In this document: one piece after another, positions 32,636 through 55,432 of the stretch | Numbering within the stretch: position 1 is the first letter of the stretch | Layout: each line of letters opens with the position of its first letter | Virus record (IMG/VR): IMGVR_UViG_2615840717_000004 | Coordinates: 39,604-103,603 of that record | DNA length: 64,000 nt | From: a virus | Taxonomy: Duplodnaviria; Caudoviricetes | Strand: one strand, 5' to 3' | Position numbers and translations under genes: made by a program | The notes under the pieces: generated by a model | Told to the model about the DNA's origin: nothing | The model's database searches: none | The model's input: the letters and a program-made list of their open reading frames with translations, nothing else

Positions 32636-33658
32636 TTACTGGCCCGGTGTATAGTTTTGAAGACGGATTTTACGCAGAACACTGGGGTTGGTGCAGAGGG
32701 ACATGGCGTTCATCTGCACTTCAATGGAGCGCCCTTTATCGTTTGGATCCTTGAACTGTCGAAGGTAAAGCGGCAGGCCTTCGGAGTTCACCGTATCTTC
32801 GTAGTCAGCGGGACCGAAACGAGTGATAAACAAATCAGGCACGCCAAACGGAACAATGCGAGCCTCATTGTGGGCAATATAGGTGCCCCCACCGGCTTCT
32901 CTCGCTTTACGGCCCTGTTTGTAGCGTTCAAACTTGAAGCCACCGAAATCGAACTTATCCGGGGCTGCGTTCCGCAACTTCCCTGCAGAAGAGGTGTTGA
33001 GGAAAGTCTCGCGAACTTCAGGACGGTTCCAGATCCATTCATGAAAATTTCGACCAGAGAACACATGCATATGCCCGTATGCCCGATCAAGGTCATCTTC
33101 AATGCCATACAGCGCATGCATCAAGAAAGAGCCAAGGCTCAGATCTGCGTCTTCATGATCGAGGTCAAGCGGAGCTGGGATTGCATAGCCAAACTTGGCA
33201 TAGAGGTTCGCCAGCGTTTTGCCATTGCGGGTCAGAACGATGCCGTTCAGTGCACCCATGCGTTGGTGTTCCAGCGTATTATCAAGGTCGCGGGTATGTT
33301 TGCGCCCCTTCTTCACAACGCGTTCCTGAAGCCGCTCCAACTGATCATTTGTCCCGGTTCTACGAACGTTCTGGATTTCGTCAGCTGAGATATGATCATT
33401 GCGCTCGTAATGAGGGATCTTGAAGGACTCGAGGGTGCGCTCTTCATCCCCGGTTGTTTCCCCAGGTCCACCACGAGCGGTTGGCTCGACTAGCTGCAGG
33501 TCGTTGCCTTCCCGTTCAATGTCGATGTAAGTGGTGTCCACCCCATCTTCTTCGAACAGGCCGGACTTGCCGATCTGATCAGGAACCGAAGGTTCTTCAT
33601 TGATGGCAAGCGTAAGGTTGTGAACGCTAAAGCGGTCGTCATCCCAGATATCAGGCAT
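32636..33658 (-). CDS. Major capsid protein (lambda gpE family)
   Basis: LT.AIN, TLEHQRMGALNG, FGPADY.DTVN..GLP.Y. Confidence 0.9.
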   Translation of the reverse strand: MPDIWDDDRFSVHNLTLAINEEPSVPDQIGKSGLFEEDGVDTTYIDIEREGNDLQLVEPTARGGPGETTGDEERTLESFKIPHYERNDHISADEIQNVRRTGTNDQLERLQERVVKKGRKHTRDLDNTLEHQRMGALNGIVLTRNGKTLANLYAKFGYAIPAPLDLDHEDADLSLGSFLMHALYGIEDDLDRAYGHMHVFSGRNFHEWIWNRPEVRETFLNTSSAGKLRNAAPDKFDFGGFKFERYKQGRKAREAGGGTYIAHNEARIVPFGVPDLFITRFGPADYEDTVNSEGLPLYLRQFKDPNDKGRSIEVQMNAMSLCTNPSVLRKIRLQNYTPGQ

Positions 33659-34134: not shown

Positions 34135-35160
34135 TTAAGAGGCCATCAACTCACGACGTTTTTTGTAAATAGAACCAGCACTCATCGTCGGCTGTTGTGG
34201 CTTGTCAGTGCTGTCCAGACCTGCACCCGTCTGTCGCAAATTGTTGTATTCGCTCTGCGATGGGTTGTTGTTGGGGGCTGGCTCGTTGTCTTCCATCAAG
34301 TCAAACTTCGCTTTGATCTGTTCAAAATCCATGCCATCGGCCATGAAGGATTCTGCAAGCTTTGGCTGCTTCTGCGCCTGCGGGAGTTCCATCACTTGCT
34401 TTTGCAACTTCATGTAGGTTTCGACGCCTTCCTTGACGCCATCGGCTTTGCCCTTAGCTTCCGCATCAGCCACCATCTGAGCAATTTCTTCATCAGTCTT
34501 TGGCATTTTCGTCTGTTCCTCTTGGGTTGGGGTTGTCTGCTCAGGCTCCTTGCCCCACTTGTTCGTGCGGGTCATAGTCACCAGCTCTTTTGGAGCTTTC
34601 GAGTATTGGGTGTAATCAAACGGCGGGCACATAAGCGAGTTCGTGCTGCCATCGTGAGTTGTTGCAAAACCAGCGATGACCGCCTCTTCACCCATCATCC
34701 ACGTTTCAGCCTCCATGATCTCTCGGGCTTCTTCCGTAGTCTTGCCGGATGCTTTAGCGTAAAGCTTTGCATACTCATCAGCCTGCATGTCGAGCAGAGC
34801 CGCACCTTCTTTGAGATCTCGCGCAGTGCCCCAAACGCCAGAGGATGGATCATGGATCATCATCTGAGCACCAGCTTTCATGATACGAACATCTGCGCCC
34901 ATTGCGATGAGTGAAGCAGCTGAAGCTGACATTGCATCAATCTGAACTGTAACCTGGCCGTCATGGGCTTTGAGAGCGTTGTAGATGGCTATAGCAGTGA
35001 TCGGATCACCACCACCTGAGTTCATTCGAACAGTTACGTCCTTTTCACGCCCGTGCTCTGCGAGTGCCTCAATGACCTGCAGCGCGGTAAAGAACTCTTC
35101 GTACCAGTCGAGCCCAACAGCCCCATACATGAAGATTTGCCCGTCTCGATAAATTCCCAT
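34135..35160 (-). CDS. ClpP-type head maturation protease
   Basis: NSGGG, SAAS.IAM, MMIHDP, ETWM. Confidence 0.92.
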   Translation of the reverse strand: MGIYRDGQIFMYGAVGLDWYEEFFTALQVIEALAEHGREKDVTVRMNSGGGDPITAIAIYNALKAHDGQVTVQIDAMSASAASLIAMGADVRIMKAGAQMMIHDPSSGVWGTARDLKEGAALLDMQADEYAKLYAKASGKTTEEAREIMEAETWMMGEEAVIAGFATTHDGSTNSLMCPPFDYTQYSKAPKELVTMTRTNKWGKEPEQTTPTQEEQTKMPKTDEEIAQMVADAEAKGKADGVKEGVETYMKLQKQVMELPQAQKQPKLAESFMADGMDFEQIKAKFDLMEDNEPAPNNNPSQSEYNNLRQTGAGLDSTDKPQQPTMSAGSIYKKRRELMAS

Positions 35161-42284: not shown

Positions 42285-43616
42285 ATGACCGCTGAGATCG
42301 CAATACTAAATAAATCATGCGTTGCTTTAGCTGCAGACAGCACCGTCTCCTTTGGCCCGTATAAGACATTCAATTCTGCTGAAAAGCTATTTGAGTTTAG
42401 TGAAAAACAACCTCTAGCTGTTATGATTTACAATGCAGCTAGTTTTCTTGATTGCCCTATCGAGCTCTTGATCAAAGATTACCGTTCCAAAAACGATCAG
42501 TTGTTCAATTCAGTTGAAGAGGCAGCAGAAGACTTTCTTTCTCACCTTACCGAATATGGCCAAACCGTCTCAGATGCAGTTCGAACAAGCAATTTGATTA
42601 ACCTTTGCCGTGATGTGCTCAACGTTATCGAAGCTAAACTACAAAAAAGAATATCTGCTATATCGATGAAAAGGGAAATGGACAGCTTCACAACCGATGA
42701 GTTTCAAGATGTGGTCAGGGAAATCCTCGCAACAATTGGAGCCGGGTTGGGTTTCAACGCTGCTAACTTTAATTACGCGCCGACTGACCAAGACGTTTTT
42801 GATAAGGAGAGAGAAGAGGCCGACAAAATAATACACGATTATATAGAGAGTTACACAAAGCACTATAGCAATGTGAGAATTCAGGGCGAATTGATTAAAG
42901 AGATAGTTGATCTACTTTTCTTCTACGCCACGACGAAAGTTCCTTCCGCATTTACTGGAATAGTTGTGGCTGGGTACGGAGAGAACGACATGTTTCCTTC
43001 GCTTTGTAGTTACGCGGTTTCTGGCATGTTAGGGGGTAATCTAGTTTTCCAAAATCAAGACAATTGCAAAATCGACAGGGACAACTTCCCCTCCGCTATT
43101 ATCCCCTTTGCACAAAAAGAAATGGTATCTAGGTTCCTAACTGGCGTTGATGATGAATTTATTGATCAAACAAACACTTACCTGAATGAAATATTGGGTG
43201 AGTTAAATAGAGAGATTATTGACTTTCTTGAATACGAAACCTCCGATGATAAAGACCGACTTAATAGTTTTCTGTCAGCTGTATCAGAGAGAATATTGGA
43301 CGATCTAAACAACAAGTGCTTCTTGCAACTTCGCAGCAACTTTCTGCAAGAGGTACAACATATGGTCAGTGCTATGCCAAAAGCAGAAATAGTAGAGATG
43401 GCACGATCACTAGTTGAACTGACCTCATTTAAAAGAAAAATATCTTCACAAATTGAGACAGTCGGTGGTCCTATTGATGTTGCCATTATCTCAAAGAACG
43501 AAGGTTTTGTCTGGGTAAATAGAAAACACTATTTCCCTGCTGAGCTCAATGCACGATACTTTAATAGGATTCGCAGAGGCGCGACTCAACATCGGGAGAG
43601 GGACGATGCTGTCTAA
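42285..43616 (+). CDS. Proteasome-beta/Ntn-hydrolase-like protein with helical insertions
   Basis: N-terminal M-T, VALAADS, EKLF, C-terminal TVGGPIDVAIIS. Confidence 0.65.
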   Translation: MTAEIAILNKSCVALAADSTVSFGPYKTFNSAEKLFEFSEKQPLAVMIYNAASFLDCPIELLIKDYRSKNDQLFNSVEEAAEDFLSHLTEYGQTVSDAVRTSNLINLCRDVLNVIEAKLQKRISAISMKREMDSFTTDEFQDVVREILATIGAGLGFNAANFNYAPTDQDVFDKEREEADKIIHDYIESYTKHYSNVRIQGELIKEIVDLLFFYATTKVPSAFTGIVVAGYGENDMFPSLCSYAVSGMLGGNLVFQNQDNCKIDRDNFPSAIIPFAQKEMVSRFLTGVDDEFIDQTNTYLNEILGELNREIIDFLEYETSDDKDRLNSFLSAVSERILDDLNNKCFLQLRSNFLQEVQHMVSAMPKAEIVEMARSLVELTSFKRKISSQIETVGGPIDVAIISKNEGFVWVNRKHYFPAELNARYFNRIRRGATQHRERDDAV

Positions 43617-43896: not shown

Positions 43897-44814
43897 TTAT
43901 GCGGAGCCTTCAAACTCGTAGCCGGTCACCTTCCCTGCTGCCTCAGTTGCCGCTTTGGGGTCGCCTTTCACGAAGATCAGTACGTTCTGATGTGTCTTGC
44001 CGAGCTTGCGCCCGCTTTCAAAGCCTCCGCGAGCCCTCAGAGGTAGCGAACCGGCTTGAGTGATCAACACAGCGTCATTGTAGAACCGCAGGCCCGCGTC
44101 TTCGCAAGCTTCAATGGTGTCCCGTACAAAGCCCCGATTGATACCTTCCCGGTCCCTGAAATCACCAACCACGATAGCTGCAAAGCGGTCTTCCTTCAGC
44201 CGCGCTGCGGCCTGCTTCATTGAGGCACGGAAGGCGCCTATAAACACGTCGTAGTGCATGTTCGAAAGGTCTGCCGGGTCATCTGAATACTTCTCCAGAT
44301 CTCCGTAGGGCGGACAGGTCAGGATGAAATCGAAATAGCCGCGCACATGCTTATAAAGCTGTACGGCATCGCCAACCTTCCACTTGGGTCTTGGCTTCAC
44401 ACCAAGAGCATCCGCCTGCAGGTCATTGGCTTCTACCTGCTCAGGGCGCAAGTCTACACCTGTGTACTCGCGCCCCATGTAGGCGGCCACTAAGCCCCGT
44501 ACAGATCCACCGGCGAAAGGATCAAGAACCTTCCCTCCAGGCGGGCAGAACCATGCATAGCAAAGCTCAGTCAGAACCGGGTCAAATATGCTTTTACTTG
44601 CCCATGAGCCGGGCGTGGTGCCCTTCCCGTTGGTTTCTGACCACTTGGCCATAGCGCTGGCGTATCCGCCTAAGAGATCTTCTTTTCGGCCTTCCCCGCT
44701 ATCAATTCCCAGGTCGAGCCAAAGGCGCTTGCGGTCTTGCCATTCCTTGGCCCTTGCGCTCAACACTGAAAACGGCGGTACGATAAAATCTTGGCTTAGT
44801 GCCCCTTTACTCAT
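43897..44814 (-). CDS. DNA amino-methyltransferase
   Basis: LDPFAGGS (motif I) and TCPPY (motif IV). Confidence 0.85.
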   Translation of the reverse strand: MSKGALSQDFIVPPFSVLSARAKEWQDRKRLWLDLGIDSGEGRKEDLLGGYASAMAKWSETNGKGTTPGSWASKSIFDPVLTELCYAWFCPPGGKVLDPFAGGSVRGLVAAYMGREYTGVDLRPEQVEANDLQADALGVKPRPKWKVGDAVQLYKHVRGYFDFILTCPPYGDLEKYSDDPADLSNMHYDVFIGAFRASMKQAAARLKEDRFAAIVVGDFRDREGINRGFVRDTIEACEDAGLRFYNDAVLITQAGSLPLRARGGFESGRKLGKTHQNVLIFVKGDPKAATEAAGKVTGYEFEGSA

Positions 44815-45148: not shown

Positions 45149-45973
45149 ATGATCAAGTTCAAAGAAAAAACACTCACGGTACAATTAGCTCTACTGGTAC
45201 CGAACTTACTGTTCGTCACTATTATATTAATATGTGCGGTTATCTTGTTCGGTCTACTTTGGAGCGGCTTAACTAGCGCATTTCAAACCTTTTCCGAAAT
45301 AGATTGGGACTTAGCAACACTCTCTGATATCGGTACGGCGGCGATGCCAGTTGTAACTATTGGTGGCTTTATATTAATCAGGCGACAGATCGGGAAAGCA
45401 GATGAAGCTAACCAAATTGCTCTTCTTCCTGTAGTCAGAGAAGCCCACTCGCTTGTTTTAGATGAGCAGCGACACATCCATAGTTTGACCCAAGTATCTT
45501 CACTCCTTCAAGCTGTTCACATTGCAAATGATCTAAGCAACGGCATAGGGCCCAAGGGTGACCCTCAGACAAACTTCAATGCACAGGGAGCAATTCTGGC
45601 GTTCCAGAGCTTAGAAGCGAAAGTACATGATTACCTATCTCCCGAAGTTTCTAAACAACGTGTAGAAATCACTCTTGTAATCAACTACATCCAGAAAGAA
45701 GTTAAGCTTCTTGAACCCATCTCAAACGAAACTCAAGAGGCACTAAGAAAACGATACGACCACAAAAATGACGAGTTAAAAAGTATCTATGACGTCAAGT
45801 ATACGATGATGGATTATCAGCAAAACAGCACTGCAAGCGTATCACAAAACCAACTAAAATTCGGAGATAAACTAAACGCTTATAGTGCGTCACTTGCAAG
45901 GGAAAGTGACGTTCTAGCGAAGAGGTTGACGTCTCTACAGAAGCTGATCAAAGCAAATAAAACTCTGCTGTGA
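45149..45973 (+). CDS. Reversed moron: 2-TM, helical protein
   Basis: Two TM helices, ILIRRQIGKADEAN; AT-rich. Confidence 0.75.
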   Translation: MIKFKEKTLTVQLALLVPNLLFVTIILICAVILFGLLWSGLTSAFQTFSEIDWDLATLSDIGTAAMPVVTIGGFILIRRQIGKADEANQIALLPVVREAHSLVLDEQRHIHSLTQVSSLLQAVHIANDLSNGIGPKGDPQTNFNAQGAILAFQSLEAKVHDYLSPEVSKQRVEITLVINYIQKEVKLLEPISNETQEALRKRYDHKNDELKSIYDVKYTMMDYQQNSTASVSQNQLKFGDKLNAYSASLARESDVLAKRLTSLQKLIKANKTLL

Positions 45974-47273: not shown

Positions 47274-47462
47274 TCATGCCGCTTTCTTTTCCTGCTTGTT
47301 GGCCCGGCTGCGTAAAGCCTCATAGTTCAATGGGGAAACATGGAGCACCCGATTGAAAAGCGCACAGACCCGATCTATGACCTCTGCTCTGTCGCCTGTC
47401 TCATTATCTTCCACCACTGTTCCAACCTCCACTTTCTGCACAAAGCGAATTGGGACGCTCAT
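47274..47462 (-). CDS. Small hypothetical phage protein
   Basis: ATGA-coupled to helicase. Confidence 0.55.
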   Translation of the reverse strand: MSVPIRFVQKVEVGTVVEDNETGDRAEVIDRVCALFNRVLHVSPLNYEALRSRANKQEKKAA

Positions 47463-48820
47463 AAGAGCATCCCGTCTTGGTGTCCTCTGTCTTCCCTGAA
47501 GGTCGTAGTGGGCCCATCAAAAACCAGCTCGGCACAACGACCGCCTGAGCCCATGCGAACTTTGTCAGCGTGCACCTGTGCCCGGTTCTTCCAATCAAGC
47601 ATGTCTGTTTGCCATTTGACATGAAGATCCGTGCCTTCTTTAGGCTCTTTCCGCAGCAGTATTGGCTCAGGGCGGAAGAGAATGAGGATGTTGTCTGCGC
47701 TGTCTTCCATGTTGGAACCGCCAAACAACTCTTTGCGCGTCAGGCGTTGCAGTGGCTCTCGCTCAGACCTGACTTCATGGGCAAGGGCAACGACTGGAAT
47801 ATTGAGGGCTTTGGCAAGCTCCTTCAACTCAGAAATTACGTAGCCGCAGCGTGCAGGAAGGTTTGAGTCTAAACGGCTATCTTTAGCCCGCATGGCCTTT
47901 ACGCTATCGACAAACAGCGCTCTCGTACCAAACCTAGACTTGTTAGCTTTTGCCCGGATAAACAGCTGCTCAACAGTCGTTCTTGAAGTCTCATCAATAT
48001 AAAGCGGGATGCTTTGGCAATCCTCTTTAGCAAGGTAGATTTTTTCCAGTTCATCAGCCGAAAGCCCGCCCCGGCGCATAGCATGGGTACTAATGCCAGA
48101 CATAGCCGCAACGCGCCGCATGGTGAGCTGTTCTGCATCCATTTCCTTTGACTGAAAATCAACTGGGCCATACTGGCAGGCAATAAACTCGGCAATCTGC
48201 AAAGCAAGAGCTGTCTTACCGCTTGCCCCCTCTGCACCGATTACAGTTAGCTCTCCATCAACCAAGCCGCCGCCCAAAAGGTTATCAACCTGCTTTAGAC
48301 CTGTCCCCAAGGCATCACCCCCTGTTTCCTGAGGCTGCGCAGCTCTCTCATAAACAGCTTGTGCGCTTTGCCCAAGGGTTACAGAACTCGCTCGCTGCGC
48401 TTGGCCTGAAATCTCTTGAAGCTCTTCAATAGCGTTCTCTGCAAGCTCAGCAGCCCTTGTGTCAGTGTAAAGAGCCTTCTGTCCCTTCTGGAAAGTCTCA
48501 GCAATCAGCTCCTTGTTCCGCCGATTGAGGAGCGGCTTCACAAGATCCTCGATTTCAGCAGTAAGCTTCTTCCCCTTGGCTGCAAGCGATTTGATGCGCG
48601 CCACTAGATCTGCATCGCCTTCATAAGGGGCGTTTGTCTCTACCAAATGCAGATCGAAGCTGCCTTCCTTGTGACAGGTGTCCAACCCGGTCCAGACAGC
48701 CTTCCAGATTGCATCATGGAAGTGCTCACGGGTCATCTGGTCAGCGACATCCCAATACAGCTCTGGAGAGGCTAAAAGGCGCGCTAAAACCTGTTGTTCG
48801 ATTGGTTCAAGGTTTGTCAT
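47459..48820 (-). CDS. DnaB-like replicative helicase
   Basis: GASGKT Walker A, SKEM, LKELAKALNIPVVAL, EDSAD. Confidence 0.9.
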   Translation of the reverse strand: MTNLEPIEQQVLARLLASPELYWDVADQMTREHFHDAIWKAVWTGLDTCHKEGSFDLHLVETNAPYEGDADLVARIKSLAAKGKKLTAEIEDLVKPLLNRRNKELIAETFQKGQKALYTDTRAAELAENAIEELQEISGQAQRASSVTLGQSAQAVYERAAQPQETGGDALGTGLKQVDNLLGGGLVDGELTVIGAEGASGKTALALQIAEFIACQYGPVDFQSKEMDAEQLTMRRVAAMSGISTHAMRRGGLSADELEKIYLAKEDCQSIPLYIDETSRTTVEQLFIRAKANKSRFGTRALFVDSVKAMRAKDSRLDSNLPARCGYVISELKELAKALNIPVVALAHEVRSEREPLQRLTRKELFGGSNMEDSADNILILFRPEPILLRKEPKEGTDLHVKWQTDMLDWKNRAQVHADKVRMGSGGRCAELVFDGPTTTFREDRGHQDGMLL

Positions 48821-49692
48821 GCAAATGCACCTCGGCTTATGTTATCAAAAGGATTCGTGTGAAATTTTAGTGAGTGTTTATGCTGTCGTTTATTCCCACC
48901 CGGTATCGGGTTCTTGTTGCCTGGGTCGGCATTATTTTGCTTGGGAGCCTCGGCGGTTTTGTTATTGCGGTAATTTACGATCTCAACCTCTCGCAAGGAC
49001 GATTGTGCGACGGGTTTGCACTTCAAACACCATGGGCGTGCAGTCGGACATGGATCAGTGCTTTGAGTGGATGGGTCGCAGCAATTGCTGCAATTGGCGC
49101 TGCTATTTATGCTGGTTCGCTTGTTAAGATTCAGATTGATCGCACTGAGGAGCAAATTGACAAAACGATCGAAGCCAATGCGATTGCTAAGCTTGAGTAC
49201 ACAACAGGTTGCTACGCGCAAATGCTGACAGAAGAGAAATGCACGAATGAGCTTCACAACTTTGCGGCTGAAAAGAACAGAATTGAGCGCAGCGATAAAC
49301 TCCATGACACCAAACCTGCCGAGACCCTTCTGGCGCTTGGAAAAAGCGTGATGTACAAGTTTGAAACTCAAGAACAGATAAATGACGCTGTACTTCCAAT
49401 TAGACTTATACAACTCAGGATAATTCTTCTTAATGAAGTCAAGGCTTTGATTGACTTTTGGGCAAATCACGGCGCGCAAACTAAAACGGTGCGTGCCGCT
49501 GACGACACGTACTACTCCATAGACCAACACGGCTGGGAAGACGCGAAAGCATGGGAAAAGCACAGGCCTGAGTATATTGATCAGATTGAGAGATGCGTGG
49601 ATGCTCATTCGGAGTTCATTAATCAGATCATTCAGCTTAAAGCTCTGTTCGAAGGTATCCAGGAAACAGCACTGAAAAAGTGATTGTTTCAT
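48817..49692 (-). CDS. Antisense shadow ORF bridging primase to helicase
   Basis: ATGA overlap at both ends; in register with 48874..49683. Confidence 0.65.
   Translation of the reverse strand: MKQSLFQCCFLDTFEQSFKLNDLINELRMSIHASLNLINILRPVLFPCFRVFPAVLVYGVVRVVSGTHRFSLRAVICPKVNQSLDFIKKNYPELYKSNWKYSVIYLFLSFKLVHHAFSKRQKGLGRFGVMEFIAALNSVLFSRKVVKLIRAFLFCQHLRVATCCVLKLSNRIGFDRFVNLLLSAINLNLNKRTSINSSANCSNCCDPSTQSTDPCPTARPWCLKCKPVAQSSLREVEIVNYRNNKTAEAPKQNNADPGNKNPIPGGNKRQHKHSLKFHTNPFDNISRGAFA
48874..49683 (+). CDS. Reversed moron: 2-TM, helical protein
   Basis: Two TM helices, VKIQIDRT...EANAIA. Confidence 0.75.
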   Translation: MFMLSFIPTRYRVLVAWVGIILLGSLGGFVIAVIYDLNLSQGRLCDGFALQTPWACSRTWISALSGWVAAIAAIGAAIYAGSLVKIQIDRTEEQIDKTIEANAIAKLEYTTGCYAQMLTEEKCTNELHNFAAEKNRIERSDKLHDTKPAETLLALGKSVMYKFETQEQINDAVLPIRLIQLRIILLNEVKALIDFWANHGAQTKTVRAADDTYYSIDQHGWEDAKAWEKHRPEYIDQIERCVDAHSEFINQIIQLKALFEGIQETALKK

Positions 49693-50732
49693 ACAGTCGC
49701 TCCATAAAGATCATTGTATACGTCCAGCCAGTCAGAGCCCGCCTCAGGCAATGCGATGTCCAGCACTTCCAATCCGGTTTCCTGAAGGTTCTGAGCTGCT
49801 CTCTTTGCAGCCTTCTCGCCCGGTGCCATCTCCCATGATCCGTCGGGCTTCTGATAAGCCTGATCGCCGTCGCCATAGATCCGCAGCCGGTCTATATCCA
49901 AGGGAGGTTCAAAGTTGATGAGGCCCGCCGTAGACAAGCAGGACCAGCAAGGACGCCCCGTCAGGGCGTAAACCGCAAGGGCTGTCTCAACGCCTTCAGC
50001 TATGCCGACTTCCCCGTCAGTAGCTTCCTGAAGTCGCACTGCGCCCCCTGCAACCGGACCAAGGCCGAGCTTGGCGTTGGCTACCGGCGCTTTCTTTCCG
50101 TCCTTAGTGATGAAAATTCGCCAGATCCCGGTGAGATCGCCCATGGTGTCATCAACACGGCAAACAAGAGCGGGAAGCTTTCCTGCGTCCGGATACTTCA
50201 ATCCCGGGTGGAAACGCAGGCAGTCTGGCCACTGCATTCTTGGGAGCCTGCGCCCCAGCAAGTAAGCTTCTGCAGGAGTACCCTCAATCGGCTTGGCTTG
50301 ATCCCAAAGCTTTTGTGCGTATTCGGTGCTATCGGCTTCCTGTTGGGCTTGCTCTTCAGATTCGCGCTCTGCCTTTGCAGCTGAGGCTTTCTTCCGTTCT
50401 GCGGCTTTGCGCTTTGCCTCTTCATCCCAAGTGCCTTCACCGGAGGGAGGTTCTTCACCAGTCAGAATCTCGCATGCTGCTTTGAAGTCAACGGACATGC
50501 AATGCATCACCACACCGATGGCATCACCTCCACCGCCAGCCCCTCTACAGTTCCACTTCTGCTTGACTGGATTCACGCTAAAGCGATCTGTGCCGCCGCA
50601 TGCCGGACAAGGGCCTACATGCTCCTTCCCGCTTCGTCTAAGCGTCGCATTAGAGGATTTAGCCGCTTCAAGTAAAGATACATCCAGTGCGCGTTGCTTA
50701 TAGTCTTTCCATTGTTGGTCGAGAAGGTTCAT
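49689..50732 (-). CDS. Primase (zinc-finger plus Toprim)
   Basis: GPCPACGGTDRF...CRG, AEGVETAL, GDGD, DWLD. Confidence 0.88.
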   Translation of the reverse strand: MNLLDQQWKDYKQRALDVSLLEAAKSSNATLRRSGKEHVGPCPACGGTDRFSVNPVKQKWNCRGAGGGGDAIGVVMHCMSVDFKAACEILTGEEPPSGEGTWDEEAKRKAAERKKASAAKAERESEEQAQQEADSTEYAQKLWDQAKPIEGTPAEAYLLGRRLPRMQWPDCLRFHPGLKYPDAGKLPALVCRVDDTMGDLTGIWRIFITKDGKKAPVANAKLGLGPVAGGAVRLQEATDGEVGIAEGVETALAVYALTGRPCWSCLSTAGLINFEPPLDIDRLRIYGDGDQAYQKPDGSWEMAPGEKAAKRAAQNLQETGLEVLDIALPEAGSDWLDVYNDLYGATV

Positions 50733-51505
50733 GCTGACCTCTCGCAAAAATGGGAAGACAGAATCAGTCCATGGTCACTAAAAGAAGTCGGTGTTTTCTC
50801 AGTAATTTTGGAATTAGTATTGTAATGCGAAATAGAGATCTGGTCTTGTGTGCAGCAGCTTGCTTTACGGGGGCTTTTATTGGAGCGCTCTGCATTATTG
50901 TCGTGACTGGCGACTTTTATGATGGACCACCTAAGGTTGGGGAAACGAGGGAAGCTCTGATACGCGGTTGGATAGCTGTTGCAATAAATGGAATAGCCGC
51001 ACTCGTTGTAGGAGTTGGTTTGTTGTTTACAGCGCGACAAACACGAAGCGCCAAACTGCAGGCGTTCCAAATGAACCTTCAGGTCATAAACGATGAAATC
51101 AATACTCTTATGATGCTGCGCCCTATCCTTCTTAACATCGGCGTTGCCACCGAAGTTATAAGTAACGCAGCCAACACAGCAAACGCTGCGCAATACTATG
51201 AAGATATAAAAGAGATCAATTTGGACATCTTTAAAACGACTTACAAAATCGGCGACACCGAGAGCAGAACAACAATTGGGGAGATATTTGACGGCATTGG
51301 GGCAATCCAAAGAGGGATAAGGGCAGAGTACCCTCTTGAGACAATACAGTGTTCTGCAAGTAAGGTGTTTCCTCTTGCTAATAAGTATTATGACAATCAT
51401 ATTAGTCGACTGCTTCCAAAACTTGAAGAAAGACAGAGCGACTTGAGAGATCTTATTATTAAGGAGACTAAGCGACTTAGTCGGCACTAGATCTTGCATC
51501 ATCAC
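50729..51505 (-). CDS. Antisense shadow ORF bridging gcrA-like gene to primase
   Basis: GTGA overlap at start, ATGA overlap at end; in register with 50750..51490. Confidence 0.65.
   Translation of the reverse strand: MMMQDLVPTKSLSLLNNKISQVALSFFKFWKQSTNMIVIILISKRKHLTCRTLYCLKRVLCPYPSLDCPNAVKYLPNCCSALGVADFVSRFKDVQIDLFYIFIVLRSVCCVGCVTYNFGGNADVKKDRAQHHKSIDFIVYDLKVHLERLQFGASCLSRCKQQTNSYNECGYSIYCNSYPTAYQSFPRFPNLRWSIIKVASHDNNAERSNKSPRKASCCTQDQISISHYNTNSKITEKTPTSFSDHGLILSSHFCERSA
50750..51490 (+). CDS. Reversed moron: 2-TM, helical protein (true start probably near 50825)
   Basis: Two TM helices, LLFTARQTRSAK. Confidence 0.75.
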   Translation: MGRQNQSMVTKRSRCFLSNFGISIVMRNRDLVLCAAACFTGAFIGALCIIVVTGDFYDGPPKVGETREALIRGWIAVAINGIAALVVGVGLLFTARQTRSAKLQAFQMNLQVINDEINTLMMLRPILLNIGVATEVISNAANTANAAQYYEDIKEINLDIFKTTYKIGDTESRTTIGEIFDGIGAIQRGIRAEYPLETIQCSASKVFPLANKYYDNHISRLLPKLEERQSDLRDLIIKETKRLSRH

Positions 51506-51942
51506 GCTACCTCCTCCTTTTGCTCATAAAGGAAGGTCTGGCAGTGCTCACAGTAGGTCTGGCGAAGATCTACTGGAGCACCACAGTAAAAGCGCTCTTT
51601 AATGGGTGGCTCACCTACCCACATAGGGCGTTTGCATTGCCTGTCTGTGATCTGGAACAGGTTCACAGGGTTTGCATCAGGAGCTTGCAGGCGGGCTTCA
51701 AGGCTATGCTGGAAGCGATTGCCACCCTTACGCCACTGGACAGAGCGCGAAACCCCTCTCTGCCCTGAGAACTCGCCCCCATTGCGCCTGACTACACCAA
51801 AGACAGCCCCCAATGTTAAGCCGGGATTAAAGGGCAAAAGCAGCTCCTGAATAGCTCTTGCTGTTCGGGTTCCATCAGCAAGGAACTTCACTGCCTCTGG
51901 TTGGGAGAGCTGGGAAATATCAATCTTTTTTCTGGCAATCAT
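51502..51942 (-). CDS. GcrA-like protein
   Basis: GAVFGVVRR; C-terminal CKRP...YCGAP...YCEH. Confidence 0.75.
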   Translation of the reverse strand: MIARKKIDISQLSQPEAVKFLADGTRTARAIQELLLPFNPGLTLGAVFGVVRRNGGEFSGQRGVSRSVQWRKGGNRFQHSLEARLQAPDANPVNLFQITDRQCKRPMWVGEPPIKERFYCGAPVDLRQTYCEHCQTFLYEQKEEVA

Positions 51943-52403
51943 AAGAACACACCTTGTTCTTGAGGTTCCATGACCGGCATAAGCAGCACTTGCAGATAGC
52001 CGGTTATCAAAATTCGGGTTTTCGGGGGCGCCCCATCAATACCGGGACCGCTCCAAGCAAGGCGCTGCAACTCATCAAGGTCGAGCAAGTCCAGCGCGTT
52101 CAGGAAGTCACCCAGCCTTCTTTCCCAAGCCGGGTAATTGGAGAACAGGTCGCTTACCGCGCCTATCAGTGAGCTTTTGAGTTCGATAGGTGGGTTTTCC
52201 ATCTCGGAAAGCGCGTATAGGACTGCCCACGCATGCTCCCTGCCCCTCAGATTGATCATCTTCTGGATCCGCACTGCGGAATGCGTCTGTTGAGGTGAGC
52301 AAGGCCCAGTTCTGATCCGCTTGCTGGCGTGCAGAACCTCTATTCCCAGTTCCGCGCACAGGCTTTCCGCTTCCCTTGTGTCGGTTGTCGTTACCGCAGG
52401 CAC
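51939..52403 (-). CDS. Hypothetical phage protein
   Basis: GAGG RBS; coupled in operon. Confidence 0.6.
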   Translation of the reverse strand: MPAVTTTDTREAESLCAELGIEVLHASKRIRTGPCSPQQTHSAVRIQKMINLRGREHAWAVLYALSEMENPPIELKSSLIGAVSDLFSNYPAWERRLGDFLNALDLLDLDELQRLAWSGPGIDGAPPKTRILITGYLQVLLMPVMEPQEQGVFL

Positions 52404-52623
52404 GTTCCAACCTCCTCTGAAGTTCGCGCTTCTCCCGCTTCAGTGTTTTGTTTGCTGATGAGGCGAGTTCGAATTGAACCTGATAGTAATGAGCGCGTGC
52501 TTGCTGCAGTTTCAGATCGGCGTCTATTGAGCTGCCGGGGCGATTTGCAGCGATCTGAGCGCGTGATAGGCGGCGCTCTGCTGCTTCTAGTCTCTCATTG
52601 TCCTGAGACTTCCAAAGGTCCAT
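52108..52623 (-). CDS. Coiled-coil hypothetical protein (C-terminus runs into next gene)
   Basis: In operon; helical N-terminal ~75 aa. Confidence 0.5.
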   Translation of the reverse strand: MDLWKSQDNERLEAAERRLSRAQIAANRPGSSIDADLKLQQARAHYYQVQFELASSANKTLKREKRELQRRLERACGNDNRHKGSGKPVRGTGNRGSARQQADQNWALLTSTDAFRSADPEDDQSEGQGACVGSPIRAFRDGKPTYRTQKLTDRRGKRPVLQLPGLGKKAG

Positions 52624-52640
52624 TGCTTTGCCCCGTAAAA

Positions 52641-53183
52641 CTAATGTCTGCTGAAAAGATCGGTGGTCTGAAGCGCGTAGGAAGGCGACTGAGTAGCTCG
52701 GAAGTAATCAAGAATTCCAAGAGCTTCCGCTTCGTTGTCGTCCTTTGGTTCCCACCCCAAGAGTCTGCCCCGGCCTATTGCCTGCTGCTTAAACCAAGCT
52801 CGGCTGTCTCTGGTGCCTTTTGGCGCCTGCCCTCGCCCGAGGTAGTGCTTGCGCCACGTCTGCATTGCAATCTTCTGATATGGGATCTGGTTTGCAACAG
52901 CTGCCATCTCGCAGAGCCGATGTTGCGCGGGCTGCCACTGCTCATTGCCCCGGTTCATCTGCTTCCCGCTGATAGCTGCAAGTTCATCTTCAATTGCAAG
53001 GTGCGTGACGCCAAAGCTTTCGATCTTACCTAGCAACCAACCATAGAAAGAAAGACTTCTGCCACCGTATCCGCCTGTTTTGTCTTTAGCCCCGCAGTCA
53101 AAAACTCCTGAGACTGGTTTAGAAAGACCGGGCTCCCAACGAGCCCAGCCAGTCTTCACACCAAGGTCGAGTGCCAGGTACAT
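52641..53183 (-). CDS. RuvC-like Holliday junction resolvase
   Basis: LALDLG..TGWA, AIE, DDNEAEALGI. Confidence 0.8.
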   Translation of the reverse strand: MYLALDLGVKTGWARWEPGLSKPVSGVFDCGAKDKTGGYGGRSLSFYGWLLGKIESFGVTHLAIEDELAAISGKQMNRGNEQWQPAQHRLCEMAAVANQIPYQKIAMQTWRKHYLGRGQAPKGTRDSRAWFKQQAIGRGRLLGWEPKDDNEAEALGILDYFRATQSPSYALQTTDLFSRH

Positions 53184-53551: not shown

Positions 53552-54066
53552 TCCGCAGCCATTTGGCGTTGGCTGGCGTTGTAGCTCGCGTCGTAATTGC
53601 GCATCAGCTCCTTGATCTGCTCAAAGCTCTTCTTGATGCGTTCGTGTTCTTTGGGGGAAATTTCGCCGTCTTCTGCGGCCTGCACGATCTCTTTCATGCT
53701 GTCGCAATGCACGGGCACAACATTCATTGCCGCGGCTGCAGGGTCCAGTTTGGCAACCCCCTCAGCTTTCTTGCGTACTTCATAGCCGCAAGCCTCAAGG
53801 TGGGCCTTGGACAGGCTTGGTTCCAAGCCAATGGCAGCCATCTCGCGCTCAAGGTAGAGAGTGTCTTTGAGGGTCAGGCTGCGCGCTTCGTTGACTTGGT
53901 AGGTCTTGCGTATAGTGCCTGAGGAATGCCCCAACACTTCTGCGGAACTCTCAACGCCAAACGCTGTCACGAGGTTCTTAATCTGCGTGCAGATCCAATT
54001 GTTAAACTGGTCAGATGTTCTCGGTGCGTTCATGGAGCGCTTTCCTGTATTTTGCCCCCATGACAC
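53548..54066 (-). CDS. CII-like regulatory protein
   Basis: FGVESSA..LG...EDGEISPKE; downstream of cro. Confidence 0.65.
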   Translation of the reverse strand: MSWGQNTGKRSMNAPRTSDQFNNWICTQIKNLVTAFGVESSAEVLGHSSGTIRKTYQVNEARSLTLKDTLYLEREMAAIGLEPSLSKAHLEACGYEVRKKAEGVAKLDPAAAAMNVVPVHCDSMKEIVQAAEDGEISPKEHERIKKSFEQIKELMRNYDASYNASQRQMAAE

Positions 54067-54480: not shown

Positions 54481-54675
54481 CTAGGCCGCAAGCGGTACTT
54501 GGCATTGAGCCTTTAAGAGGTAGAGGAGCCGCTTTGAGGGCTCTGGAATCTCTTGACCTTGCTCGAAACGATTAACTGTAGGCTGTTTGACGCCGAGAAA
54601 ATCGGCGAGATCAGATTGCGACCAACCCAACTCCGTCCGCAGCTCTTTCACTGACTGATTATCCATGGGTTCCAT
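54481..54675 (-). CDS. cro: Cro-like repressor
   Basis: VKELRTELGWSQSDLADFLGVKQPTVNRFEQG. Confidence 0.85.
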   Translation of the reverse strand: MEPMDNQSVKELRTELGWSQSDLADFLGVKQPTVNRFEQGQEIPEPSKRLLYLLKAQCQVPLAA

Positions 54676-54696
54676 CCTCTATCGTGATGGAGATAA

Positions 54697-54736
54697 AATA
54701 CAAAACGGATTTATCAGTGTCAATACCAAATGTATT
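54697..54736. promoter_or_regulatory. OR operators and PR
   Basis: AATACAAAACGGATT (54697-54711) and AATACCAAATGTATT (54722-54736); TTGACA on minus strand at 54723-54718. Confidence 0.8.
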
Positions 54737-54760
54737 TTATTAGAGGGCATATTGTATGCC

Positions 54761-55432
54761 ATGACACAAGCATTCAAAGACCGACTCAAGACAGCCAGAG
54801 AAAAGGCAGGCTTTGCCAGTGCAGCTGATGCAGCTGACGCTCTTGGTATCAAAATACCTACATACACCCATCACGAAAATGGCACACGGAAACCTAAGAC
54901 AGATGCAATCGAAAGGTATGCTCGCTTTTTTGGAGTCGCAGCTACCTGGTTGATGTTTGGGAAGAATGAAACACCTGCAGAAGTTGAACCAGCAAGTAAC
55001 CCCATAAGGAAGCGACAGGTGGCGAAACTTCTCAGCCCCTTCACGGTTCCGGTCTATGGCTCCATTTCAGGTGGTGATGAAGATTATCTAGAAGCTACCA
55101 GCGAGGCGCTGGATCACATAGCTGCCCCAAACTCGCTAATGGATGTGGAAGGTGCATTCGCGCTTTACATGCCGGGTACAGCGATGGAGCCGCGCTACCA
55201 TGAAGGCGAGACGCTTTTTGTAAACCCGAAAAAGCTACCTCGCCCAGGTGAGTATGCCGCCATCATGCACTCCGATCAAACACCTACAGGCTCTCCAATC
55301 TGGCAGGTAGGGCGCTATGAGCGCGTGGATGCGGGCAACCGTGTATTTTCAAGGTATAACGGACAAGAACTTCGCATTCCAACAGACAAGATCCGTGCAA
55401 TACACAAGATTGTCGCTACAGGAGAATGGTGA
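54761..55432 (+). CDS. cI: CI-like repressor (XRE plus S24-like domain, catalytic dyad apparently lost)
   Basis: N-terminal HTH; GTAMEP where GDSMEP is usual. Confidence 0.85.
   Translation: MTQAFKDRLKTAREKAGFASAADAADALGIKIPTYTHHENGTRKPKTDAIERYARFFGVAATWLMFGKNETPAEVEPASNPIRKRQVAKLLSPFTVPVYGSISGGDEDYLEATSEALDHIAAPNSLMDVEGAFALYMPGTAMEPRYHEGETLFVNPKKLPRPGEYAAIMHSDQTPTGSPIWQVGRYERVDAGNRVFSRYNGQELRIPTDKIRAIHKIVATGEW

What the first reader, a model, noticed from the sequence alone, without database searches (positions are those of the whole stretch)
50729..51505. gcrA-like-to-primase translational bridge across a second reversed moron
GTGATGATG at 51505 overlaps the gcrA-like stop. The 258 open codons lie opposite an AT-rich cargo gene, and the final TGA overlaps the primase ATG (50732) behind GAGAGG. 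This independently repeats the same architecture 1 kb away.
Basis: partly seen in the sequence, partly recalled or inferred. Interest (0 to 1): 0.85.

Follow-up and report, generated by a model that had tools for sequence, protein, structure and literature searches.

The report
Stop-free bridge ORF across backward phage gene
A membrane-protein gene sits backwards inside a Pseudovibrio prophage's early replication operon, and the operon strand across it is kept free of stop codons and joined end to end to its neighbours, most likely so that ribosomes stay on the transcript up to the primase gene; no description of this design in phages turned up in the literature searched.

Summary
The minus-strand ORF 50729-51505 (258 codons) starts in GTGATGATG, over the TGA of the GcrA-like gene and behind AGGAGGAGG. 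It ends in a TGA that overlaps the primase ATG (50732), behind GAGAGG. It is codon-aligned and antisense to a real plus-strand gene (50825-51490), which encodes a protein with two membrane helices and a helical bundle.

The real gene is under purifying selection (dN/dS 0.31). The minus-frame peptide is not (0.67). The cargo contains no TTA, CTA or TCA codon. Given its amino-acid sequence, the chance of that is 1e-3 to 4e-6.

The pattern recurs. Nine cargo genes in this genome and a related one have 0 such codons in 2348. A related cargo family in 20 viral contigs (15 DNA-level lineages) has 0 in 4935 codons, against 2.0% in flanking genes (Fisher 1.6e-40). In 19 of 20 the bridge stop is an ATGA overlap with the next gene's start.

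Best reading (0.68): a translated spacer cistron selected to stay open, not for its product. It would prevent Rho-dependent polarity and hand ribosomes to the primase. Translation itself is inferred, not shown.

The closest published parallel is the ambigrammatic narnaviruses. Other agents of this scan reported the same design in prophages of other bacteria.

The parts
50729..51505 (-). Bridge ORF (258 codons, P0001). It is stop-free and codon-aligned antisense to the cargo. Its product has shadow-like composition (Cys 6.2%, Ser 11.6%, Glu 1.9%).
   Evidence: no Pfam, PHROG or PADLOC match
51497..51505 (-). Start cluster GTGATGATG. GTG overlaps the upstream TGA as GTGA, and the first ATG overlaps it as TGATG.
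   Evidence: the same GTGATG motif is found in L012, L015, L016, L018 and L019
51510..51518 (-). Shine-Dalgarno-like AGGAGGAGG, 4 nt before the GTG and 7 nt before the first ATG of the bridge. It lies inside the 3' end of the GcrA-like gene.
   Evidence: conserved in L011, L012 and L013
50729..50732 (-). ATGA overlap between the bridge stop (TGA) and the primase start (ATG).
   Evidence: the same overlap ends the bridge frame in 19 of 20 viral loci
50738..50743 (-). GAGAGG Shine-Dalgarno for the primase, inside the 3' end of the bridge ORF.
50825..51490 (+). Cargo gene. The ORF is open from 50750, and the start conserved with P0006 and L012 is ATG 50825. It encodes a protein with two membrane helices plus a helical bundle. 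It has 0 TTA/CTA/TCA and GC 0.44.
51502..51942 (-). Upstream operon gene, weakly GcrA-like at its C-terminus.
   Evidence: E 8e-4, below the Pfam cut-off
49689..50732 (-). DNA primase (CHC2 zinc finger, DUF7146, Toprim).
48817..49692 (-). Second bridge ORF (291 codons), with ATGA overlaps to the primase stop and the DnaB start.
48880..49683 (+). Second cargo gene (P0004/P0007), from a family with two membrane helices and a variable C-terminal domain. It has 0 TTA/CTA/TCA.
47459..48820 (-). DnaB-like replicative helicase.
54481..55432 (.). Immunity switch: a Cro-like HTH gene (54481-54675, minus strand) diverges from a CI-like HTH plus peptidase S24 repressor gene (54665-55432, plus strand). 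This makes the minus-strand chain the early lytic operon, and puts the cargo genes on the repressor's strand.
3..3400 (-). Two further chained bridge ORFs (2306-3400, and 3-2306 running off the window) lie opposite four plus-strand cargo genes. Two of these are pentapeptide-repeat proteins. They belong to a neighbouring primase/D5-helicase element.

Best explanation
The minus-strand ORF 50729-51505 is a translated 'bridge' cistron of the prophage early operon (cro-like ... GcrA-like, bridge, primase, bridge, DnaB). An accessory membrane-protein gene sits backwards between the GcrA-like gene and the primase. Ribosomes that finish the GcrA-like gene restart at the GTG/ATG cluster behind a strong Shine-Dalgarno sequence. 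They read 258 sense-less codons across the antisense of the cargo and terminate on the primase ATG (ATGA). Selection acts on the act of translation, not on the peptide. The cargo simply avoids the three codons (TTA, CTA, TCA) that would read as stops on the operon strand. The likely benefit is twofold. First, the C-rich antisense RNA is never left naked for Rho, so transcription reaches the primase and helicase. Second, ribosomes are delivered to the next start codon. Shown here: the anatomy, the codon exclusion, its conservation, and the lack of constraint on the peptide. Inferred: co-transcription, translation, and the involvement of Rho.
For: (1) Anatomy. There are 4-nt overlaps at both ends, with Shine-Dalgarno sequences before the bridge start and before the primase start.
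(2) The cargo is the selected protein. Against orthologue L012 there are 28, 29 and 56 substitutions at plus-strand codon positions 1, 2 and 3. dN/dS is 0.31 in the plus frame and 0.67 in the minus frame, and 0.33 against 0.95 in a second cargo pair. Among paralogues the plus translations score about twice the minus ones. Other cargo genes carry Pfam pentapeptide repeats above the cut-off.
(3) The codon exclusion is specific. In nine cargo genes (2348 codons) TTA, CTA and TCA each count 0, while GTA 22, ATA 39, ACA 38, GCA 72 and AGA 43 are used freely. The other four frames hold 4-40 stops per gene.
(4) P(open | protein sequence) is 1e-3 to 4e-6 for this gene alone.
(5) An independent sample was chosen only by protein homology to the related cargo family: 20 IMG/VR loci in 15 DNA-level clusters. 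It has 0 of 4935 cargo codons against 549 of 27271 in flanking genes, Fisher P 1.6e-40. In 19 of 20 the bridge stop is an ATGA (once TTGA) overlap with the next start. In 16 of 20 an in-frame start overlaps, or lies within 5 nt of, an upstream gene's stop.
(6) Spacers between consecutive cargo genes are multiples of 3 in 6 of 6 cases, so one minus frame stays aligned.
(7) Internal control. Plus-strand genes of the same prophage that stand at gaps of 280-330 nt (42285-43616, 45149-45973) use the three codons at 4.7% and 8.0%.
(8) The minus RNA over the bridge is C>G (C/G 1.22, against 0.80-0.91 in flanking genes). The host has Rho. Rho terminates untranslated, pyrimidine-rich antisense RNA (PMC13323073).
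Against: There is no transcript, ribosome-footprint or peptide evidence. The primase has its own Shine-Dalgarno sequence and could initiate independently. Making a 258-residue useless peptide is costly. The 20-locus sample tests the family of the neighbouring cargo (P0004), not of this cargo, whose only orthologue with DNA is L012. In that sample family and context are confounded, because no member was found in a co-directional setting. In one related locus (L011 8762-9424) the cargo is not codon-aligned, and its open antisense frame is not significant on its own (P about 0.1). No promoter for the cargo gene could be identified, so its expression in lysogeny is assumed.
Confidence: 0.68

Rival explanations
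1. The minus ORF is a genuine antisense overlapping gene, and its 258-residue product has a function of its own.
For: It has a strong Shine-Dalgarno sequence and a start codon, and it is open in all relatives. An experimentally supported case exists in phage Fc02, where lytic-operon gene 10 overlaps an exclusion gene on the other strand and both show exclusion activity (PMC9936078). Bridge peptides end in Ala far more often than expected (17 of 20, against 20% background), so at least the C-terminus may be selected.
Against: The minus-frame dN/dS is 0.67-0.95, and its amino-acid identity is always below that of the plus frame. At the same site between the GcrA-like gene and the primase, related prophages carry unrelated cargo and therefore unrelated bridge peptides. 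The composition is shadow-like (Cys 6%, Glu 2%). There are no Pfam, PHROG or PADLOC matches.
Confidence: 0.12
2. The three codons are avoided for the cargo's own sake, for example through dependence on rare tRNAs or a bldA-like regulatory effect on the plus mRNA. The open minus frame is then a by-product.
For: The exclusion is seen as a codon-usage feature of the plus genes. Atypical genes can have odd codon usage.
Against: The three codons are exactly the reverse complements of the three stops, while other rare A-ending codons (ATA, AGA, GTA) are used freely. The non-coding flanks and the spacers between cargo genes are also open in the same frame, and spacer lengths keep that frame. The frame begins and ends on stop/start overlaps with the neighbouring genes. 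Unrelated cargo families share the trait.
Confidence: 0.05
3. It is an ordinary shadow ORF produced by genome-wide codon bias or by chance.
For: Codon-aligned antisense open stretches of 600 nt or more are common in this genome (1035 pairs). TTA+CTA+TCA make up only 1.9% of codons overall. Such ORFs are known to be frequent and mostly meaningless (bioRxiv 10.1101/724807).
Against: For genes of this GC content (0.44-0.48) and length, only about 1% have a zero count, and all the zero-count AT-rich long genes lie in these two elements. P is 1e-3 to 4e-6 for this gene alone and 1.6e-40 for the neighbouring cargo family across viral loci. Chance does not explain exact stop/start overlaps at both ends.
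Confidence: 0.03
4. The cargo is an invertible or transposon-like cassette that can be read in either orientation.
For: Both strands are open over the same interval, and the cargo is hypervariable between conserved flanks.
Against: There are no terminal inverted repeats or flanking direct repeats at the cargo borders. No recombinase gene is adjacent. The minus peptide is not conserved.
Confidence: 0.02

Closest known systems
Ambigrammatic narnaviruses (reverse ORF opposite the RdRp gene; DeRisi et al. 2019, PMC6884476; Retallack et al. 2021, PMC8316113)
   Same: A codon-aligned reverse frame is freed of stops purely by avoiding the three codons that are reverse complements of stops. The openness is conserved across relatives. 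The process of translation, rather than the product, is proposed to matter.
   Different: Those are RNA viruses of eukaryotes with one gene and a whole-genome reverse ORF. Here it is a dsDNA temperate phage of a bacterium. The open frame is on the operon strand, is bounded by stop/start overlaps with neighbouring cistrons, and covers a swappable accessory gene. The proposed benefit (operon continuity and Rho avoidance) is specific to bacteria.
[quoted passage not shown]
   Same: There is statistical avoidance of stops opposite real genes without negative selection on the antisense translation. The authors speculate on a role for translation other than encoding a protein.
   Different: That work is a genome-wide statistic dominated by conserved genes such as dnaK. 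As far as its abstract and author summary go, which is all I read, it describes no operon context, no coupling at the ends and no link to reversed cargo in phages.
Noncontiguous operons (Staphylococcus aureus atlas, PMC11034616)
   Same: An operon transcript runs across a gene transcribed in the opposite direction.
   Different: There the emphasis is on antisense RNA regulation of the embedded gene. I have not read of a stop-free, coupled reading frame across the embedded gene there, but I saw only the title and the start of the abstract.
P1 immI c4-icd-ant and P4 eta/kil: translation of an upstream frame is needed to avoid Rho termination before the downstream gene (from my own knowledge: Biere, Citron & Schuster 1992 Genes Dev; not read here)
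   Same: Translation for its own sake keeps a phage operon transcribed. A C4 RNA (Rfam RF01695) actually lies inside a neighbouring bridge frame of this genome.
   Different: Those are short leader-type frames on ordinary sense sequence, not hundreds of codons laid over an antisense gene.
Phage Fc02 gene 10 / olg1 (PMC9936078)
   Same: A gene of the lytic early operon overlaps, on the opposite strand, an exclusion gene expressed in the lysogen next to the repressor.
   Different: In Fc02 both products are reported to be active. Here the operon-strand peptide shows no sign of selection.

Membership tests
Ambigrammatic coding (stop-free, codon-aligned reverse frame kept by selection) | The two frames are codon-aligned. 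| tested here: met
   The low coordinates of the plus and minus codons share the same residue modulo 3. The cargo has no TTA, CTA or TCA.
Ambigrammatic coding (stop-free, codon-aligned reverse frame kept by selection) | [quoted passage not shown] | tested here: met
   The frame is open in orthologue L012 (77% aa identity). For the neighbouring cargo family it is open in 20 of 20 viral loci from 15 lineages.
Ambigrammatic coding (stop-free, codon-aligned reverse frame kept by selection) | The reverse frame is actually translated. | not testable with these tools
   Only signals are available: a Shine-Dalgarno sequence, start codons, and stop/start overlaps.
Antisense overlapping protein-coding gene (functional product) | Purifying selection acts on the antisense amino-acid sequence. 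| tested here: not met
   dN/dS is 0.67 and 0.95 in the minus frame, against 0.31 and 0.33 in the plus frame.
Antisense overlapping protein-coding gene (functional product) | The antisense product has recognisable homologues or domains. | tested here: not met
   There are no Pfam, PHROG or PADLOC matches for P0001. Unrelated bridge peptides occupy the same site in L011 and L013.
Codon-bias shadow ORF | The openness is explained by the codon usage of comparable genes. | tested here: not met
   About 1% of comparable genes have a zero count. P is 1e-3 to 4e-6. Fisher P is 1.6e-40 across viral loci.
Noncontiguous operon | A single transcript spans the flanking genes and the antisense of the embedded gene. 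| not testable with these tools
   This needs strand-specific RNA-seq of induced lysogens. Only tight packing and the absence of a convincing intrinsic terminator within the bridge interval can be seen; the simple scan listed one weak 5-bp minus-strand candidate at 51261-51249.
GcrA cell-cycle regulator family (upstream gene) | A Pfam PF07750 match at or above the gathering score. | tested here: not met
   The score is 20.3 bits against a cut-off of 26.9, covering the C-terminal part only. There is no NCBIfam match.

The most novel reading that the evidence does not exclude
Stop-free 'bridge' cistrons may be a general design rule of temperate phages and satellites. Accessory or defence genes could then be carried backwards inside essential early operons because they are written without the three codons that would stop ribosomes on the operon strand. 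That would make a pool of ambigrammatic cargo genes that swap between elements without causing polarity. The bridge peptides may also be marked for degradation by C-terminal Ala or Ala-Ala.
Probability: 0.55. Interest if true: 0.88.

Novelty: new variant of a known kind. Interest (0 to 1): 0.8.

Why it matters
If true, it shows a constraint on synonymous codon choice that comes from the opposite strand's need to be translated, not from any protein it encodes. That would explain how phages can carry backward-facing accessory or defence genes inside essential operons without cutting those operons in two. It gives annotators a simple signature for such cargo: zero TTA/CTA/TCA, and a frame-locked antisense ORF with ATGA junctions. 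It would extend ambigrammatic coding from a few eukaryotic RNA viruses to bacterial DNA phages. It also offers a clean genetic system for measuring how much translation protects a transcript from Rho, because single synonymous changes in the cargo create stops in the bridge.

Tried and rejected
- DNA (blastn) and protein (tblastn) searches of the locus against GenBank phages found nothing.
- Genome-contig scans with P0006 and P0008 found nothing. One scan with the alignment failed for lack of a conserved stretch.
- A class-wide search of 400 genomes with the cargo-family profile gave no hit outside the window's own genome.
- A viral-contig scan with P0002 peptides found nothing. The finding's own cargo therefore has only one orthologue with DNA, L012.
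- P0002 and the P0004 family are not demonstrably homologous (BLASTP E 12; hhalign probability 16%).
- Inversion-switch and transposon readings were rejected, because the cargo has no terminal inverted or direct repeats.
- The non-aligned open frame in L011 was tested by synonymous resampling and is not significant on its own (P 0.07-0.13), so I do not count it.
- The promoter scan gave a plausible sigma-70-like site only for the second cargo (48814-48843), not for this one.
- Six literature searches, several of them aimed at a published description of bridge ORFs in phages, found none.

Full report
**Setting.** The window is contig C39:69175-133174 of a 5.8-Mb Pseudovibrio-type genome. The genus is inferred from the only named homologues of the cargo proteins, which come from Pseudovibrio sp. 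Ad46 and P. ascidiaceicola. Around 47-55 kb lies a prophage immunity and replication region. A CI-like repressor gene (HTH plus peptidase S24, 54665-55432, plus strand) diverges from a Cro-like HTH gene (54481-54675, minus strand). Downstream on the minus strand run a weak CII-like gene, a RuvC-like resolvase, a small gene, a weakly GcrA-like gene (51502-51942), a primase (49689-50732) and a DnaB helicase (47459-48820). From the gene starting at 54066 down to DnaB at 47459 most neighbouring minus-strand ORFs abut or overlap by 1-4 nt; the stretch 52403-52641 was not resolved.

**The observation.** It is correct to the base.
- GTG 51505 overlaps the TGA of the GcrA-like gene, two in-frame ATGs follow, and AGGAGGAGG lies 4-10 nt upstream.
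- 258 codons later, TGA 50731-50729 overlaps the primase ATG 50732, which has GAGAGG 5 nt upstream.
- The ORF is codon-aligned and antisense to the plus ORF 50750-51490.
- A second pair (minus 48817-49692, plus 48874-49683) fills the gap between primase and DnaB, with ATGA overlaps at both ends.

**Which strand codes.** The plus strand does.
- The plus products have two clear hydrophobic helices and a helical C-terminal part. The Atlas model of the first is two membrane helices plus a four-helix bundle, pLDDT 0.72.
- They have database homologues: P0006 at 77% identity, and P0008 and P0009 at 40%.
- A profile of the second family finds 160 representatives.
- Against the orthologous prophage L012, substitutions fall 28, 29 and 56 on plus-strand codon positions 1, 2 and 3. 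Changed codons are synonymous 39 times in the plus frame and 19 times in the minus frame. dN/dS is 0.31 (plus) against 0.67 (minus). A second cargo pair gives 0.33 against 0.95.
- Among paralogues the plus translations score about twice the minus ones.
- Other cargo genes in the neighbouring element carry pentapeptide repeats above Pfam's cut-off.
- The minus products have shadow-like composition (Cys 6.2%, Ser 11.6%, Glu 1.9%) and no family match.

**Is the open antisense frame chance?** No.
- Long aligned antisense frames are common in this genome (1035 pairs of 600 nt or more), because TTA+CTA+TCA make up only about 1.9% of codons.
- But among coding-like genes with GC 0.44-0.48 these codons reach 3.5%, and only about 1% of genes of 220-320 codons have none.
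- Every AT-rich gene of 200 or more codons with a zero count lies in two places of C39: the locus studied here, and a neighbouring primase/D5-helicase element at the window's left edge. The one exception is an ORF in a masked stretch.
- Given the cargo's amino-acid sequence and the synonymous usage of other window genes, the chance of an open frame is 1e-3. With the usage of AT-rich window genes it is 4e-6.
- In nine cargo genes (2348 codons) TTA, CTA and TCA are all zero, while other A-ending codons are frequent (ATA 39, AGA 43, GCA 72). The other four frames carry 4-40 stops per gene.
- Plus-strand genes of the same prophage that are not tightly embedded (42285-43616, 45149-45973) use the three codons at 4.7% and 8.0%.

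**Independent sample.** A scan of IMG/VR with only the conserved membrane-helix motif of the second cargo family returned 20 loci. They fall into 15 clusters without DNA similarity, with locus GC from 0.49 to 0.64.
- In all 20 the aligned antisense frame is open over the whole cargo gene: 0 of 4935 cargo codons, against 549 of 27271 (2.0%) in flanking minus-strand genes, Fisher P 1.6e-40.
- In 19 of 20 the open frame ends in TGA overlapping the ATG (once TTG) of the next minus-strand gene, usually behind a GGAG-type Shine-Dalgarno sequence.
- In 16 of 20 an in-frame start overlaps, or lies within 5 nt of, the stop of an upstream minus-strand ORF. In most of these it lies 3-33 nt from the cargo's 3' end, often as GGAGG-N4-5-GTGATG.
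- Several frames run 600-930 codons across two or more cargo genes.
- Spacers between consecutive cargo genes are multiples of 3 in 6 of 6 cases (0, 3, 36, 48, 75 and 78 nt), so one frame stays aligned.
- Between this genome and a congener, the flanks of the second element are 87% identical, while the cargo between them is unalignable. Both versions are still fully bridged.
- At the site between the GcrA-like gene and the primase, related prophages carry different cargo. L011 and L013 have a BRCT-like or another membrane protein, an sRNA-Xcc1 element and a KilA-N gene. They keep the same start motif on the GcrA-like stop and a stop on the primase start.

**Mechanism.** Only a frame-reading process can select against stops in one frame, so the minus frame is almost certainly read by ribosomes. 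Its peptide is free to change, so what is selected is the act of translation. Two benefits are plausible.
- The minus RNA opposite the cargo is C-rich (C/G 1.22, against 0.80-0.91 in neighbouring genes). The host has Rho. Rho terminates untranslated, pyrimidine-rich antisense RNA (PMC13323073). An untranslated 0.8-kb stretch ahead of the primase and helicase would therefore invite polarity.
- The ATGA junctions would pass terminating ribosomes to the next start. Because the primase has its own Shine-Dalgarno sequence, I rank avoidance of polarity above re-initiation.

Both benefits are inferences. No expression data exist here.

**Cargo function.** This remains uncertain. The protein has two membrane helices and a helical bundle. 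The nearest named Atlas clusters are DUF4760 and the retron Ec48 membrane effector, at scores below 0.85, and there is no PADLOC match. The gene lies on the repressor's strand and is AT-richer than its neighbours. These features fit an accessory gene expressed in the lysogen (exclusion or defence), but that is a guess.

**Comparison with known systems.** Six literature searches, several of them aimed at this design in phages, found no description of it.
- The closest principle is ambigrammatic coding in narnaviruses (PMC6884476, PMC8316113). I took this lead from earlier notes of this scan and checked it in the papers.
- Stop avoidance opposite prokaryotic genes without selection on the product has been shown statistically (bioRxiv 10.1101/724807).
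- Noncontiguous operons (PMC11034616) and phage Fc02 gene 10/olg1 (PMC9936078) share parts of the architecture.
- Earlier follow-up reports of this scan describe the same design in Achromobacter, Stenotrophomonas and Janthinobacterium-type prophages. These are AI notes. I cite them as leads and did not count them as evidence.

**Verdict.** The finding is a new variant of a known coding principle, in a new biological setting.

Noticed in passing
L009:10684-10766 (-) = C39:68683-68765, about 410-490 nt before the window's start; also L011:8498-8582 (-) and L013:8427-8511 (-): A C4 antisense RNA (RF01695, 55 bits) lies inside the roughly 1088-codon bridge frame upstream of a Bro-N gene. An sRNA-Xcc1 element (RF02221, 66 bits) lies inside the long minus frames upstream of KilA-N genes in related prophages. 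The stop-free frames run straight through these RNA genes, which recalls the P1 c4-icd-ant logic.
   Followed up: partly
window 50732-50737 and the bridge stops of L011-L030: Bridge peptides end in Ala in 17 of 20 viral loci (Ala-Ala in 9 of 20). The two in this window end in Ser-Ala (50729-51505) and Phe-Ala (48817-49692). At ordinary ATGA junctions of the host genome the last codon is GCA in 20% and the ending is Ala-Ala in 6% (246 junctions). This could be a degradation tag or a nucleotide preference before the next ATG.
   Followed up: partly
window 84-1346 (+) and 2420-3391 (+): Two further backward cargo genes encode pentapeptide-repeat proteins (Pfam E 1e-21 and 3e-13). They have weak, below-cut-off similarity to the anti-phage Hailong effector HalA. 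Both have fully open antisense frames chained by a TGATG stop/restart at about 2306.
   Followed up: partly
L009 (C39:58000-70000) compared with L008 (G002:C8:570000-588000): A second mobile element (Bro-N, small ORF, primase, D5-type helicase) adjoins the prophage. Its flanks are 87% identical between two species, but the two-gene backward cargo between Bro-N and the primase is completely replaced. This marks a cargo hotspot.
   Followed up: partly
window 42285-43616 (+), 43897-44814 (-), 45149-45973 (+): Two AT-rich plus-strand genes of unknown function flank a DNA methylase gene, with intergenic gaps of 280-330 nt. They use TTA/CTA/TCA normally (4.7% and 8.0%) and have no bridge frame, so they serve as an internal negative control.
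   Followed up: yes
L011:8762-9424 (+): A cargo gene with a BRCT-like C-terminus is not codon-aligned with the long minus frame that covers it, yet that frame is open. Synonymous resampling gives P of only about 0.1, so this may be chance or may reflect constraint at the amino-acid level.
   Followed up: yes
window 32636-33658 and 34135-35160: Structural-module genes on the minus strand have 240-codon plus-strand shadow ORFs, with 2-4 TTA/CTA/TCA codons per gene. These look like ordinary codon-bias shadows, not bridges.
   Followed up: no
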